Assembly: GCA_017961325.1 (NCBI GenBank)
Contig: JAGCXM010000042.1
Location: 11,623-75,622 of the forward strand
Origin: a bacterium
GTDB taxonomy: Bacteria > UBP6 > UBA1177
Length of the DNA stretch: 64,000 bases
Direction of reading: 5' to 3'
Positions 60,505-64,000 of the stretch are shown here, in pieces. How positions within the stretch are numbered: the first letter of the stretch is position 1; each line of letters begins with the position of its first letter. The translations under genes and the position numbers were made by a program. The notes beneath the pieces are model-generated. The model had not been told where the DNA came from. It saw nothing but the letters and a program-made list of their open reading frames with translations, and did no database searches.

Positions 60505-60532
60505 TTGACGTTCCCCAAAATGTTCTTATAAT
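60505..60532 (+). promoter_or_regulatory. Near-consensus sigma70-type promoter ahead of type I R-M operon
   Basis: TTGACG -16 nt- TATAAT. Confidence 0.45.
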
Positions 60533-60564
60533 TTAAGCCGTTAATGTTTTTTGAGGACAGAAAC

Positions 60565-61206
60565 ATGACACAAAAGTCATCCGTTGACAGTTCAGGGCAG
60601 GTTAAACTTGGCGATGTCGCTGAAATCAGGACTGGTTTCATGACGACAAGGAACAAAAGCAACGGAAAGGACAGTAAAAAATTCAAGTATAGGCTTCTGA
60701 ATCTGAAGTGTATCGACAATTTCGGTTTCATAAATACTTCCATGGTGGAGGATTTTGAATCGCACGAAAAATTGAAGAGTGATTTTTTGACAGGTGTCGG
60801 GGATATTCTGATCCGCCTAAGCTTCCCTTACACCGTTGTTTTTATTGACAAAAAGGAACAGTACGGTTTGCTTGTGCCTTCTCATTTCGCGATTGTCAGA
60901 GCTAAGGATCTGATTTCCGCCAAATATATTTTCTGGGCACTAAGGCGTGCTAAAAGCAGAGCGGCTCTTATGCAGAAAAGTGCTTCGACAGTTGCACTGC
61001 CGGTTGTTACCAAGATACAGATAGAAGAAATTGTGATTCCGAGATTTTCTGAAGAAAAACAGAAATTTATCGGCAATATTTTTATTTCTGCAGAGAAGGA
61101 ATTCGAACTGACGATGCAGCTTGCAAATGAAAAAAGGGGTTTTTATTCAGCGATTCTTGAACAATTAAACGATAAATTAAATGGAGAAAACGATGGCGAC
61201 CACTAA
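60565..61206 (+). CDS. hsdS: Type I restriction-modification specificity subunit, half-size (single TRD + conserved C-terminal helix)
   Basis: HsdS TRD fold signature (LGDVAEIRTG) and conserved coiled-coil C-terminus; start at MTQKSS after GAGGA (track ORF begins 60544). Confidence 0.7.
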   Translation: MTQKSSVDSSGQVKLGDVAEIRTGFMTTRNKSNGKDSKKFKYRLLNLKCIDNFGFINTSMVEDFESHEKLKSDFLTGVGDILIRLSFPYTVVFIDKKEQYGLLVPSHFAIVRAKDLISAKYIFWALRRAKSRAALMQKSASTVALPVVTKIQIEEIVIPRFSEEKQKFIGNIFISAEKEFELTMQLANEKRGFYSAILEQLNDKLNGENDGDH

Positions 61207-62755
61207 ACAGAAGATCAATGACGTGCTTTTCAAGGCTTGTGACACTTTCCGCGGTAAAATCGACAGTTCGCGTTACAAGGACTACATTCTTTCGATGCTT
61301 TTTGTGAAATATCTCAGCGATGTCTATTCTGAAACCCGTGAAAATTTCATGAAGCAGTATGACGGTGACGAAGAACGTGTTGCCCGCGCCATGGGAAGGA
61401 ATCGTTTTGTTCTGGATCCTTCATCCTCTTTCCAGTATCTTTATGAAAACCGCAAGGATCCCGAGATAGGTCAGAAAATAAATATGGTTCTTAATGCGAT
61501 CGAAAACAACAACAGCGCGAAACTTCACAATGTTTTCCGTGCCATAGATTTCAATTCCCAGGTCGATCTGGGTGATCCGAAAGAGAAAAACGCGATTCTC
61601 TGCAATCTGCTCGAGGATTTTTCGGAACTCGATCTCAGGCCGTCCCAGCTTGATTCTTCCGACATTCTGGGCGATGCCTACGAATATATGATCGCCAATT
61701 TCGCTTCTGATGCAGGGAAGAAAGGCGGCGAGTTCTACACTCCGGGCATGGTTTCCGAACTGGTTGCGCGTCTTGTCGCACCGAAGGAAAACGACAGGAT
61801 CTATGATGCCACCTGCGGCAGCGGCGGTCTGCTTCTCAAGGCGTTCAAGCAGATTCCAAGCGGGAAAGCAAGGATTTACGGACAGGAAAAGAATATGCAG
61901 ACATGGGCTCTTTGCCGCATGAACATGTTTCTTCACAATGTCGATGATGCTGTAATCTGGCAGGGTGACACGCTTTCAAATCCGGGAAATATAGAAAATG
62001 ACAAACTTATGAAATTCCAGTGTGTGGTTGCAAATCCGCCGTTTTCACTGGATAAATGGGACAGCGGCTTCCTTGTTGACGCGGTTCCTGACGCAAAAGG
62101 AAAGCAGAATGCAAAAATGTCTCCTGAACTTGATCCTTACCGCCGTTTCGACTGGGGTGTTCCGCCGGCATCGAAAGGCGATTACGCTTTTGTAATGCAC
62201 ATGCTGCACAGCCTTGACGACAGCACAGGGCGCATGGGAATCATACTTCCGCACGGAGTTCTTTTCCGCGGTGCAAGCGAAGGGAGAATCCGCCGCACCA
62301 TGATAGAAAGTTTCAATCTTCTTGATGCAGTCATCGGACTTCCGGCAAACCTGTTCTACGGCGCAGGCATTCCGGCGGCGATACTTGTTTTCAGAAAAGA
62401 CCGCGGCGCGAGCAACAAAATCCTTTTTGTGGATGCAAGCGGCGAAGGTCACTTTGAAAAAGGGAAAAACCAGAACCGTCTCCGTGAAAGCGATGTCGAA
62501 AAAATCGTTGAAACATACACCCGCTACAAAACAGATCCGGCATTCACAGGCGAAGAAAAGTTCAGCCATGTCGCAACATTGCAGGAAATCAGTGACAACG
62601 ACTACAACCTTAACATTCCGCGCTATGTCGATACTTTCGAGGAAGAAGAACTTCTGGACATCAACGAAATCCAGCAGAATATCGCCACTCTCGAAAACGA
62701 ACTCGCCGGAGTTCAGGCAAAAATTAAGAAATATATGGATGAATTGGGGCTGTAA
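61193..62755 (+). CDS. hsdM: Type I restriction-modification DNA methyltransferase subunit M
   Basis: N6-adenine MTase motif I (DATCGSGGLL) and motif IV (NPPFS); HsdM N-terminal domain; 14-nt overlap with upstream hsdS. Confidence 0.9.
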   Translation: MATTKQKINDVLFKACDTFRGKIDSSRYKDYILSMLFVKYLSDVYSETRENFMKQYDGDEERVARAMGRNRFVLDPSSSFQYLYENRKDPEIGQKINMVLNAIENNNSAKLHNVFRAIDFNSQVDLGDPKEKNAILCNLLEDFSELDLRPSQLDSSDILGDAYEYMIANFASDAGKKGGEFYTPGMVSELVARLVAPKENDRIYDATCGSGGLLLKAFKQIPSGKARIYGQEKNMQTWALCRMNMFLHNVDDAVIWQGDTLSNPGNIENDKLMKFQCVVANPPFSLDKWDSGFLVDAVPDAKGKQNAKMSPELDPYRRFDWGVPPASKGDYAFVMHMLHSLDDSTGRMGIILPHGVLFRGASEGRIRRTMIESFNLLDAVIGLPANLFYGAGIPAAILVFRKDRGASNKILFVDASGEGHFEKGKNQNRLRESDVEKIVETYTRYKTDPAFTGEEKFSHVATLQEISDNDYNLNIPRYVDTFEEEELLDINEIQQNIATLENELAGVQAKIKKYMDELGL

Positions 62756-62789
62756 AAAGGTCACTTCTGGAAAATAATGGAGGTTTAAG

Positions 62790-63371
62790 ATGGAAAGTTC
62801 TTTTTTAATTATTGTTTCGGCTGCACTTTCAGGATTATTGGCGACTTTAATTACATTGTGGGTACAAAGAAAAACAAGGAAATACAATAGTAAATTTAAA
62901 ATTTTTGAGACACTTATGTCGCATCGATACAATTTTGCTGCCGAGGATAATGTTAAAGCGTTAAATTCTATAGATGTAATTTTCTATGAAGACGAAAAGG
63001 TGCTCAAGGCTTTTGAAGATTTCTTAAATGAGACCGTTAAGGCACCGGAAACAAATCCAAATCACATTGATAAGTATCTTAAATTATTGGAAGAAATGGC
63101 TGATAAGCTTAATCTTAAAAATATAAGTTGGGATTGTATAAAAAAACATATGTATTGCCCAGATCTTTTATTTGAGAAAATTAACGAGGAAAATGCTTTG
63201 CGTAAAGCATTGTTACAGAATGCAGTTGGGGCATCTACAATGAATTCTACTCAACAAAACAATGTGGACCAATTAATAGTGCAAGAGCTATTAAAGAATC
63301 CCGAAAGTTTAAAATTGTTAATAAAACACGGTCTTAGTTTGAATGCGAGAAATAATGATGTCAAAAAGTAA
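62790..63371 (+). CDS. AT-rich unknown gene inserted between hsdM and hsdS; N-terminal TM helix + ~165 aa helical domain
   Basis: GGAGG RBS; MESSFLIIVSAALSGLLATLITLWV anchor; GC clearly lower than flanking hsdM. Confidence 0.5.
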   Translation: MESSFLIIVSAALSGLLATLITLWVQRKTRKYNSKFKIFETLMSHRYNFAAEDNVKALNSIDVIFYEDEKVLKAFEDFLNETVKAPETNPNHIDKYLKLLEEMADKLNLKNISWDCIKKHMYCPDLLFEKINEENALRKALLQNAVGASTMNSTQQNNVDQLIVQELLKNPESLKLLIKHGLSLNARNNDVKK

Positions 63372-64000
63372 GCAAAGAATAGACTTGATTCGCAAGGGTA
63401 TTATTCCAGACGGCTATAAAAAAACAAAGGCTGGCATAATTCCCGCTGATTGGGAAATTCATCCTTTGTCTCAGCATTTGTCTGAAAGTCGTATTCCTGG
63501 AAGCAATGGTTCTATTGCTAAAAAACTTTCAGTTAAACTTTGGAATAAAGGTGTTTGTGAAAAGCGCGAAGTTCACTCTGGAAGCGAAAGTACAAAATAT
63601 TATAAACGAAAAAAAGGGCAGTTTATATATAGCAAACTGGATTTCCTTAATTGTGCTTTTGGTATTATTCCCGAAGAGTTGGATGGTTACGAAAGCACAA
63701 TAGACCTTCCGTGTTTCGATTTGTCTGATGTCAATGATTATTACTTTTTATCCTATATAACTCAGCCTAAATTTTACTCGCATTATGGCATGTTGGCTGA
63801 CGGTGGAAGAAAAGCTCGTCGAGTTGATCCTGAAGAAATGTTGTCTTTCCCGTTAGTTTTCCCCCCTCTTCCAGAACAGCAGAAAATTGCCAAAATCCTT
63901 TCAACTCAAGACAAGGTTATCGAACTGAAAGAAAAACTGTTGGAGCAAAAACAAATTCAGAAAAAATGGCTCATGCAGAAGCTCCTTTCAAATGACGGTG
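63355..64000 (+). CDS. hsdS: Type I restriction-modification specificity subunit S (3' end beyond window)
   Basis: ATGATG start overlapping upstream stop; typical HsdS TRD1 and central conserved region (LPEQQKIAKILSTQDKVIELKEKLLEQKQ); ORF still open at 64000. Confidence 0.8.
   Translation, partial: MMSKSKQRIDLIRKGIIPDGYKKTKAGIIPADWEIHPLSQHLSESRIPGSNGSIAKKLSVKLWNKGVCEKREVHSGSESTKYYKRKKGQFIYSKLDFLNCAFGIIPEELDGYESTIDLPCFDLSDVNDYYFLSYITQPKFYSHYGMLADGGRKARRVDPEEMLSFPLVFPPLPEQQKIAKILSTQDKVIELKEKLLEQKQIQKKWLMQKLLSNDG

What the first reader, a model, noticed from the sequence alone, without database searches (positions are those of the whole stretch)
60505..64000. Type I R-M locus with a half-size hsdS before hsdM and an AT-rich membrane-anchored passenger gene between hsdM and a second hsdS
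Gene order is promoter - hsdS(half, one TRD) - hsdM - unknown 193-aa gene (N-terminal TM helix) - hsdS (AT-rich, runs off the window). No hsdR is in the window. Composition drops visibly from hsdM to the passenger gene and the distal hsdS, as expected for a horizontally swapped specificity cassette that carried a passenger. Genes embedded between hsdM and hsdS in other bacteria are often stand-alone anti-phage effectors (e.g. the PrrC anticodon nuclease, Abi/Rlo genes). This makes the 62790..63371 product a candidate new defense or abortive-infection component. The two S genes could also give alternative specificities.
Basis: partly seen in the sequence, partly recalled or inferred. Interest (0 to 1): 0.7.

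Follow-up and report, generated by a model that had tools for sequence, protein, structure and literature searches.

The report
Membrane-anchored cargo gene inside restriction operon
The window ends in a complete type I restriction-modification operon whose slot between the methylase and specificity genes carries a small membrane-anchored protein of unknown function (Pfam DUF6680). Its relatives sit next to restriction-modification genes of several types in many gut bacteria, which makes it a reasonable but untested candidate for an anti-phage accessory gene.

Summary
The gene order is promoter-like site, half-size HsdS-like gene, hsdM, a 193-aa gene, then a two-TRD hsdS that runs off the window. 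The 193-aa gene is the lowest-GC stretch of the 64 kb window (31% against 45%).

A near-identical contig (L002) completes the operon: hsdS, a 240-aa unknown, a RES-domain protein, a Schlafen/AlbA_2 ATPase, hsdR and a SAM methyltransferase.

The 193-aa protein is not a new family. It matches Pfam DUF6680, which has about 2,400 clusters at 50% identity. All sampled members have an N-out/C-in membrane anchor and a cytoplasmic helical domain. The domain has no catalytic motif and no fold match.

The R-M linkage is strong among close relatives: 14 of 18 species-level loci and 60 of 78 metagenome loci have an R-M gene within three genes. The partners are type I hsdS, type III-like mod/res and type II C5 methylases. 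Distant relatives (2 of 15) and viral contigs (1 of 14) lack the linkage.

Backbones of the same type I family chosen by HsdM alone carry other cargo in the same slot (RhuM+TIR, ABC ATPase+nuclease, other membrane proteins). DUF6680 is therefore interchangeable embedded cargo, not an obligatory subunit.

The half-size HsdS-like gene is a conserved hallmark of this family and not a swapped alternative specificity gene. The function of DUF6680 remains inferred.

The parts
60505..60532 (+). Sigma-70-like promoter candidate (TTGACG-16-TATAAT) ahead of the operon
   Evidence: 11 of 12 match, the best in the region. It lies in the 236-bp gap upstream of the first gene. This is a consensus match only.
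60565..61206 (+). Half-size HsdS-like gene: one TRD plus one conserved helix, 213 aa from ATG 60565, or 220 aa from 60544. A conserved signature of this type I family.
   Evidence: It is conserved in every sister locus. GAGGA lies 8 nt before 60565.
61193..62755 (+). hsdM, the type I N6-adenine methyltransferase subunit (520 aa, or 524 aa from 61181). Its start overlaps the stop of the half-S gene.
   Evidence: N6_Mtase 7e-98, HsdM_N 1.5e-25. MTase_I 7e-143.
62790..63371 (+). DUF6680 (PF20385) gene, 193 aa, embedded cargo. N-terminal transmembrane anchor plus a cytoplasmic all-helical domain. GC 31%.
   Evidence: 91.7 bits, E 5e-26. AF2 pLDDT 90.3. TM and charge bias. GC.
62802..62864 (+). Codons for the transmembrane helix of DUF6680 (residues 5-25), followed by the basic stretch QRKTRKYNSKFK
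   Evidence: KD19 of 2.38. Across 69 family members, K/R averages 0.26 on the N-side and 4.1 on the C-side, which indicates N-out/C-in.
63343..64000 (+). 5' part of the full-length hsdS (TRD1 plus the central conserved region). It continues to window-equivalent 64578 (411 aa, two TRDs). Its start overlaps the DUF6680 stop.
   Evidence: TRD1 is identical and TRD2 is swapped relative to L007.
59008..60307 (+). Neighbouring two-gene candidate defence module: DUF3990 (59008..59679) plus an HTH protein (59657..60307)
   Evidence: Pfam. PADLOC PDC-M42A 1.6e-46 and PDC-M42B 1.9e-5.
57608..58882 (+). AAA_14/DUF4143 ATPase, a candidate single-gene defence protein in the same island
   Evidence: PADLOC PDC-S01 7e-64.

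Best explanation
The window ends in the 5' half of a chromosomal, complete type I R-M operon. It belongs to a widespread family whose constant parts are a half-size HsdS-like gene, hsdM, hsdS and hsdR, usually followed by a YgjP-like peptidase.

Two inter-gene slots in this family, hsdM|hsdS and hsdS|hsdR, act as hot spots for fast-turnover cargo. In this locus the first slot holds a DUF6680 gene. The second holds a 240-aa unknown, a RES-domain protein and a Schlafen/AlbA_2 ATPase.

DUF6680 is a non-enzymatic, single-pass membrane protein, N-out/C-in, with a cytoplasmic helical bundle. It is co-transcribed with the R-M genes and translationally coupled to hsdS.

The most likely role is inferred, not shown. 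I take it to be an autonomous defence-type accessory acting at the cytoplasmic face of the membrane, for example an abortive-infection or exclusion effector or sensor. It rides on R-M operons and adds a second layer to restriction, as other R-M-embedded cargo does.

Shown here: the anatomy, family membership, topology signature, R-M linkage of close relatives, and interchangeability with other cargo. Inferred: the defence function and the membrane-level mechanism.
For: - Operon anatomy and completion on L002.
- DUF6680 membership.
- The TM anchor and positive-inside bias are conserved in 69 of 69 diverse members.
- A confident all-helical model (pLDDT 90.3) has no enzyme-like motif. The conserved residues are R46, N59, F65, Y122 and P124.
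- R-M linkage is strong. Nine of the 17 close species-level loci from the genome scan, plus this locus, share the same type I architecture. Others sit after a C5-MTase plus an HNH protein or an unannotated 246-aa protein, beside other type I families (L020, L054), or directly 5' of a type III-like Mod plus Res.
- Survey figures: 14 of 18 close loci and 60 of 78 metagenome loci have an R-M gene within 3 genes.
- Interchangeability: six backbones chosen by HsdM alone (77-92% identical to the window's) all have cargo in the hsdM|hsdS slot, and only one carries DUF6680. The others carry RhuM+TIR, an AAA_21 ATPase plus a DpnII-like protein, RhuM plus a 117-aa gene, and unrelated membrane proteins.
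- Independence from R-M: distant members (2 of 15) and viral or satellite contigs (1 of 14) are not R-M-linked. They sit next to integrases, D5 primases or a PBECR2 toxin.
- Guilt-by-embedding has experimental precedent (Payne et al., bioRxiv 10.1101/2024.01.29.577857; TgvAB, PMC11411939).
Against: - There is no functional evidence of any kind.
- DUF6680 has no match in PADLOC v2 or PHROGs, none in PDB by sequence or by fold, and none in the viral fold library BFVD. Nothing ties it to a known effector class.
- It nearly always lies directly 5' of the target-recognition gene. Its stop overlaps the hsdS start in 8 type I loci and the mod start in 33 of 37 type III loci. That fits a dedicated partnership with the methylase/specificity module as well as it fits free-riding cargo.
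- Within the type I family its divergence tracks HsdM moderately (Spearman 0.49).
- A single TM helix plus a neutral helical bundle is not an obvious pore-former.
- Many of the metagenome loci are related by descent, so the counts overstate the number of independent events.
Confidence: 0.45

Rival explanations
1. DUF6680 is a genuine accessory subunit of R-M enzymes. In this reading it is a membrane tether or adaptor that binds the methylase/specificity module (HsdS-HsdM or Mod) and holds the complex at the inner face of the membrane, where foreign DNA enters. Alternatively it controls the assembly or activity of the complex.
For: - It sits immediately 5' of hsdS or mod, with overlapping stop and start, in most loci.
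- The association spans type I, II and III systems.
- The soluble domain is cytoplasmic.
- There is moderate co-divergence with HsdM.
- When other cargo shares the slot, DUF6680 is usually the gene nearest hsdS (L009, L013, L015, L017, L146).
Against: - The same R-M backbone, with HsdM up to 92% identical, works with entirely different genes in that slot.
- Other cargo is packed against hsdS just as tightly.
- One DUF6680 subfamily pairs with structurally unrelated methylases: HsdS, Mod and C5-MTase.
- Distant members and mobile-element copies have no R-M nearby.
- The HsdM family has more than 7,500 clusters within E 1e-100. The first, word-index-limited search for DUF6680 returned 37 relatives of the window's protein.
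Confidence: 0.2
2. DUF6680 regulates the establishment or expression of mobile R-M modules. It could act as a leader gene whose translation sets hsdS or mod output, or as a factor that delays restriction after transfer. It would have no direct anti-phage action.
For: - It is translationally coupled to the downstream specificity or methylase gene.
- It is often the first gene of the mod-res unit, and sometimes follows a small HTH ORF (L103, L104, L106, L107).
Against: - The protein sequence and TM anchor are conserved over about 2,400 clusters, which argues for a protein-level function.
- It has no DNA- or RNA-binding domain, and the soluble part is charge-neutral.
- Sister operons lack it.
- Copies occur without any R-M nearby.
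Confidence: 0.1
3. DUF6680 is a selfish or neutral passenger with no role in defence, for example a mobile-element membrane protein of unrelated function. On this view it accumulates in R-M operons only because those slots tolerate insertions.
For: - It occurs beside integrases and primases and in housekeeping neighbourhoods (L024, L025, L038, L055).
- Its low GC in every host is typical of mobile DNA.
- It has no recognisable effector domain.
Against: - Linkage to R-M genes is very strong and specific in two independent subfamilies.
- The ORF is intact and conserved, with a good RBS.
- Its co-occupants in these slots are almost all defence-type domains: TIR, RES, AbiE, Fic, Schlafen, HEPN and ABC ATPase+nuclease.
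Confidence: 0.15

Closest known systems
Pfam DUF6680 (PF20385), an uncharacterised bacterial family
   Same: The 193-aa protein scores 91.7 bits (gathering threshold 23.2) over residues 5-157. All homologs found carry the same Pfam assignment.
   Different: Nothing is known about the family. No paper in the searchable library mentions DUF6680 or PF20385. The R-M linkage, the conserved N-out/C-in anchor and the fold model reported here go beyond that name.
R-M-embedded defence cargo: PrrC/RloC anticodon nucleases, Campylobacter rlo/mlo genes, TgvAB in the V. cholerae type I R-M, and the PADLOC 'PDC' guilt-by-embedding candidates
   Same: It lies co-directionally inside a type I R-M operon, in a slot that holds variable defence-type genes in sister loci. 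This is the logic of Payne et al. 2024 and of TgvAB.
   Different: - DUF6680 has no ABC-ATPase, nuclease, GmrSD or other catalytic domain.
- It is absent from PADLOC-DB v2 and from the supplements of Payne et al..
- It is also embedded in type III-like and type II systems.
- It has no experimental phenotype.
- PrrC is guarded by its R-M partner, and nothing here shows that for DUF6680.
Small membrane-anchored abortive-infection or superinfection-exclusion proteins such as lactococcal AbiP and Sie2009, T4 Imm and P22 SieA (named from my own knowledge; not compared here)
   Same: They share the size class, a single N-terminal membrane anchor, single-gene organisation, and occurrence on mobile elements and defence islands.
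   Different: No sequence or fold similarity to any protein in the PHROGs or BFVD libraries was detected; the named proteins were not compared directly. The bulk of DUF6680 is predicted to be cytoplasmic, unlike Sie proteins that act on the outer face. The resemblance is one of architecture only.
Classical type I R-M systems with half-size or multiple hsdS genes (truncated EcoR124I/EcoDXXI HsdS dimers; phase-variable hsdS shufflons of Mycoplasma, S. pneumoniae and Bacteroides)
   Same: A one-TRD HsdS-like gene accompanies a two-TRD hsdS in one operon.
   Different: - The half-size gene here is a constant member of the family and is evenly conserved. It is not a truncated or shuffled copy.
- It shares no DNA repeats with the full hsdS, and no recombinase is present.
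- It scores below the Pfam Methylase_S threshold.

Membership tests
Pfam DUF6680 (PF20385) | HMM score above the curated gathering threshold | tested here: met
   91.7 bits against a cut-off of 23.2, E 5.4e-26, residues 5-157 on profile positions 6-163 of 170.
Pfam DUF6680 (PF20385) | N-terminal hydrophobic anchor followed by a basic juxtamembrane stretch (a family-wide feature established here) | tested here: met
   69 of 69 diverse members have KD19 of at least 1.97, and 66 of 69 start within the first 15 residues. K/R averages 0.26 on the N-side and 4.1 on the C-side.
Type I restriction-modification system | HsdM with HsdM_N and N6_Mtase domains | tested here: met
   (7e-98 and 1.5e-25). 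(MTase_I 7e-143).
Type I restriction-modification system | HsdS with two TRDs and two conserved regions | tested here: met
   Only TRD1 and the central region lie in the window. The full 411-aa protein, with two Methylase_S stretches, is on the 99.9%-identical contig L002.
Type I restriction-modification system | HsdR (HSDR_N nuclease plus SF2 motor) in the same operon | tested here: met
   It is not in the window. On L002 it lies at window-equivalent 68196..71318: 1040 aa, HSDR_N 3e-37, SWI2_SNF2 1.4e-77, REase_I 5.6e-182.
Type I restriction-modification system | Methylation and restriction activity, and the recognition motif | not testable with these tools
   This needs SMRT or nanopore methylome data and restriction assays.
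PrrC/RloC-type R-M-guarded anticodon nuclease | ABC-ATPase N-domain plus a C-terminal ACNase domain | tested here: not met
   no ATPase or nuclease family matches DUF6680. The model is a TM helix plus a helical bundle.
PADLOC catalogued defence systems and PDC candidates (v2.0.0) | A match to any PADLOC HMM | tested here: not met
   0 families for the 193-aa protein. Its neighbours do match: PDC-S01, PDC-M42A/B, Specificity_I, MTase_I.
Phase-variable type I system (hsdS shufflon) | Inverted repeats shared between hsdS copies, plus a site-specific recombinase in the locus | tested here: not met
   no inverted or direct repeat longer than 28 nt links the two S genes, and both are on the same strand. 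No recombinase is called in the locus.
Defence gene by guilt-by-embedding (Payne et al. 2024 criterion) | Co-directional, embedded between the genes of a known multi-gene defence system, and not a mobility or housekeeping family | tested here: met
   It has no mobility or housekeeping domain. The criterion predicts defence function but does not demonstrate it.
Phage-encoded superinfection-exclusion or holin-like proteins | Homology to, or fold similarity with, phage protein families | tested here: not met
   PHROGs gives no hit. BFVD Foldseek's best E is 0.55. Only 14 loci were found in two IMG/VR scans.

The most novel reading that the evidence does not exclude
DUF6680 is a general, previously unrecognised membrane-anchoring or sensing partner of DNA methylase/specificity modules across type I, II and III R-M systems. 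It would couple restriction complexes to the cytoplasmic face of the membrane at the site of DNA entry, or trigger a membrane-level response when the R-M complex is inhibited. That would explain why it sits directly 5' of hsdS or mod and is translationally coupled to it.
Probability: 0.15. Interest if true: 0.75.

Novelty: new member of a known kind. Interest (0 to 1): 0.45.

Why it matters
Genes embedded in R-M operons have repeatedly proved to be independent anti-phage systems (PrrC, TgvAB, the HEC/PDC sets). DUF6680 is a sizeable family of about 2,400 clusters at 50% identity. It is absent from the PADLOC v2.0.0 models scanned here and from the searchable literature.

Two of its subfamilies are tightly linked to R-M systems of three types in gut and rumen bacteria. 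It is small, single-gene and membrane-anchored, so it is cheap to test.

A positive result would add a new membrane-acting defence or R-M accessory class. A negative result would show that embedding alone can mislead.

The conserved half-size HsdS-like gene of this very common type I family is also unexplained. It could change how the specificity of these enzymes is predicted from sequence.

Tried and rejected
2. Sequence links. NCBIfam, PADLOC, PHROGs and a PDB profile search gave nothing for DUF6680.
3. DNA-mimic or DNA-binding idea. The soluble domain is roughly neutral (24 K/R against 24 D/E; family median pI 8.5), so this was rejected.
4. Domain fusions as functional hints. The apparent 321-398-aa 'fusions' in L030, L140 and L143 are ORF over-extensions in high-GC DNA. 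Only one DUF2971-DUF6680 fusion (P0149) looks real, and it is a singleton.
5. hsdS shuffling. No repeats or recombinase were found.
6. An apparent hsdM disruption in L001 is a scaffold gap of Ns, not biology.
7. Searching with the diverse alignment A2 in the contig collections failed because it has no conserved stretch. Subfamily alignments A1 and A3 were used instead.
8. Taxon. The window's HsdM equals MBP5407289.1 from an unclassified '[bacterium]' MAG. The contigs come from ruminant gut metagenomes. The organism was not resolved.
9. Literature. There are no papers for DUF6680 or PF20385. DUF4391 gave only incidental mentions.

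
Full report
**Observation**

The region 60505..64000 contains four co-directional ORFs.

- The first is a half-size HsdS-like gene (60544/60565..61206). It matches type I specificity profiles over one TRD plus one conserved helix. PADLOC Specificity_I gives 4e-10, and Pfam Methylase_S falls just below threshold at 20.8 against 22 bits.
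- hsdM (61181/61193..62755) is unambiguous, with N6_Mtase at 7e-98.
- The 193-aa ORF (62790..63371) has a GGAGG ribosome-binding site.
- A second hsdS starts at 63343/63358, overlaps the previous stop codon and runs off the window.
- TTGACG-16-TATAAT at 60505..60532 is the best promoter-like match in the region. No convincing terminator separates the genes.

The GC break is real. hsdM is 0.476, the 193-aa gene 0.313 and hsdS 0.373. The 193-aa gene is the only stretch of the 64 kb window below 0.36. The window is chromosomal, since it carries RNase P RNA, SRP RNA and six tRNAs.

**Completing the locus**

An exact look-up of the 193-aa protein found nine metagenome contigs from ruminant gut samples. 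L002 is 99.9% identical to the last 11 kb of the window, and window position equals L002 position plus 52789. Downstream of the window lie the following genes.

- The rest of hsdS (411 aa, two TRDs).
- A 240-aa unknown with 27% GC.
- A 501-aa protein with a C-terminal RES domain.
- A 455-aa protein with Schlafen/AlbA_2, HATPase_c_4 and wHTH domains.
- hsdR, 1040 aa, at window-equivalent 68196..71318.
- A 210-aa SAM methyltransferase.

The R-M system is therefore complete and carries four embedded genes. Upstream in the window lie a DUF4143 ATPase (PADLOC PDC-S01) and a DUF3990+HTH pair (PDC-M42A/B). The whole region is a defence island.

**What the 193-aa protein is**

It belongs to Pfam DUF6680 (91.7 bits). 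An exhaustive profile search found 2,439 clusters at 50% identity with E up to 1e-3.

All 69 diverse members examined have an N-terminal hydrophobic helix. Almost no K/R precedes it, and about four K/R follow it. This indicates an N-out/C-in anchor with a cytoplasmic domain.

The conserved residues (R46, N59, F65, Y122, P124) do not resemble a catalytic set. The soluble part is charge-neutral. No paper in the library mentions the family.

**Genomic context of relatives**

In a one-genome-per-species scan, ten loci including this one share a single architecture. The order is half-S, hsdM, zero or one cargo gene (RhuM, DUF4145 or Bro-N), DUF6680, hsdS, cargo, hsdR, and in seven of them a YgjP-like peptidase. 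The hosts include Christensenellaceae, Ruminococcaceae and other Clostridia, and Thomasclavelia.

Other close homologs have different R-M partners.

- Some follow a C5-methylase plus an HNH protein or an unannotated 246-aa protein (L011, L012, L014).
- Some lie beside other type I families (L020, L054, L022).

A second subfamily of 166-190 aa sits directly 5' of a type III-like Mod followed by a Res helicase. AbiEi/AbiEii, Fic, DUF4391 or a Schlafen-like gene often lies upstream.

Counting loci with usable context, an R-M gene lies within three genes in these proportions:

| Sample | Loci with an R-M gene within 3 genes |
|---|---|
| Close species-level loci | 14 of 18 |
| Distant species-level loci | 2 of 15 |
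| Metagenome loci | 60 of 78 |
| Viral-contig loci | 1 of 14 |

The non-R-M copies sit by integrases, D5-type primases or a PBECR2 toxin, or in ordinary neighbourhoods.

**Cargo or subunit?**

HsdM of this family is abundant, with more than 7,500 clusters at E below 1e-100. Six backbones were chosen only by HsdM similarity (77-92% identity). All have the half-S, hsdM, hsdS and hsdR, and the four whose sequence extends past hsdR also have the YgjP-like gene. All six have something in the hsdM|hsdS slot, but only one has DUF6680 (L146). The others carry the following:

- RhuM plus a CAP12-type TIR.
- RhuM plus a 117-aa gene.
- Two unknowns, one of them multi-TM.
- Bro-N, a 69-aa ORF and a TM-anchored 212-aa protein.
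- In the backbone whose HsdM is 92% identical to the window's, an AAA_21 ATPase plus a DpnII/MboI-like protein.

DUF6680 is therefore interchangeable cargo in a hot spot and is not needed by the enzyme.

Within the family, mean pairwise identities are HsdM 76%, HsdR 70%, DUF6680 55%, half-S 39% and full HsdS 32%. Against the sister locus L007, HsdM, RES and HsdR are 94-98% identical. DUF6680 is 68% identical, TRD2 of hsdS is replaced, and the 240-aa gene is absent. This shows local turnover.

Arguments for a closer partnership remain. DUF6680 nearly always abuts the specificity or methylase gene with overlapping stop and start. Its divergence also correlates moderately with that of HsdM (rho 0.49). 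However, other cargo is packed just as tightly in these operons.

**Composition**

DUF6680 is AT-richer than hsdM in all ten type I loci, whatever the host GC. The drop is therefore a family trait typical of mobile cargo. It is not specific evidence of a recent swap at this locus.

**The half-size HsdS-like gene**

It is present in every locus of this type I family that was examined. It is conserved evenly along its length, unlike true TRDs, and its divergence tracks HsdM (rho 0.67). It shares no repeats with the full hsdS, and no recombinase is nearby. It is a fixed, unexplained component of the family and not an incidental alternative specificity gene.

**Interpretation**

The best-supported reading is that DUF6680 is a small, non-enzymatic, membrane-anchored cargo gene embedded in R-M operons. 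By the guilt-by-embedding logic it is a defence candidate. That logic has been validated experimentally for other families (Payne et al.; TgvAB).

The most likely mode of action is at the cytoplasmic face of the membrane, through abortive infection, exclusion or sensing. Confidence in 'autonomous defence-type cargo' is about 0.45, and the specific mechanism is inference only.

The rivals are a membrane tether or adaptor for the methylase/specificity module (0.2), an expression or establishment role (0.1), and a non-defence passenger (0.15).

**Verdict**

The locus is an ordinary, though cargo-rich, type I R-M operon. The passenger belongs to a catalogued DUF whose strong and previously undescribed R-M linkage makes it a worthwhile candidate of moderate interest.

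Noticed in passing
window 60565..61206; also L007, L009, L010, L013, L015-L018, L021, L146-L156: Every locus of this very common type I R-M family has a conserved half-size HsdS-like gene just upstream of hsdM and overlapping it. Most also have a YgjP-like metallopeptidase after hsdR. The half-S is evenly conserved (mean 39% identity) and not hypervariable. Its role is unknown: it could direct a second motif, play a structural part, or act as a regulator.
   Followed up: partly
L002 12525..14030 (window-equivalent 65314..66819) and L002 11786..12508: The 501-aa protein has a long unknown N-terminal region, an internal 54-nt tandem duplication (L002 12826..12933) and a C-terminal RES (NAD+-targeting toxin) domain. 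It has no Xre-type antitoxin. The preceding 240-aa gene (27% GC) is absent from the sister locus L007, where the RES protein is 98% identical, so that gene is not an obligatory partner.
   Followed up: partly
L002 14043..15410 (window-equivalent 66832..68199): The protein with Schlafen/AlbA_2, HATPase_c_4 and wHTH domains is embedded before hsdR. It contains four copies of a 12-nt tandem repeat (VNDT x4; L002 15166..15225). Related Schlafen-like genes also sit directly upstream of DUF6680-mod-res in about a dozen metagenome loci (L118-L132).
   Followed up: no
window 57608..60307; L044-L047 2630..3532: A DUF4143 ATPase (PADLOC PDC-S01) and a DUF3990+HTH pair (PDC-M42A/B) lie just upstream of the operon. 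An HTH-DUF3990 fusion also lies upstream of the Fic-Fic-DUF6680-mod-res loci, so DUF3990 recurs in DUF6680 neighbourhoods.
   Followed up: no
L150 10499..11239; L156 3465..4103: In two sister operons without DUF6680, the gene immediately before hsdS is also a membrane protein: a multi-TM 246-aa protein and an N-terminally anchored 212-aa protein. Neither has detectable homology to DUF6680. Membrane proteins may be a recurrent occupant of this slot.
   Followed up: partly
L085 5470..12820 and many of L056-L135: A recurrent gut-metagenome module has the order AbiEi, AbiEii, DUF6680, type III-like Mod, Res helicase, a 305-309-aa unknown and a 179-aa multi-TM protein. The last two genes have no Pfam match and may belong to the system.
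   Followed up: no
L029 6076..18102; L048 3065..8434: A separate arrangement has an SNF2 helicase (L029) or an unannotated 706-aa protein (L048), DUF4391, DUF6680, an optional TIR protein, and then an N6_N4 methylase. DUF4391 is itself uncharacterised and appears here as a second small partner gene.
   Followed up: no
P0149 (421 aa, from the representative search): This is a single DUF2971-DUF6680 fusion protein. DUF2971 also occurs as separate cargo between hsdS and hsdR in L150/L151.
   Followed up: partly
L001 8870..8922: The apparent split of hsdM into two ORFs in one metagenome contig is caused by a scaffold gap (a run of N plus unrelated bases). It is not a natural frameshift.
   Followed up: yes
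window 5224..6318, 39651..39726 and 40601..40951: The window carries SRP RNA next to a cluster of four tRNA-Ser genes and one tRNA-Arg, a tRNA-Met, and a class A RNase P RNA. It is therefore chromosomal and not a plasmid or phage.
   Followed up: no
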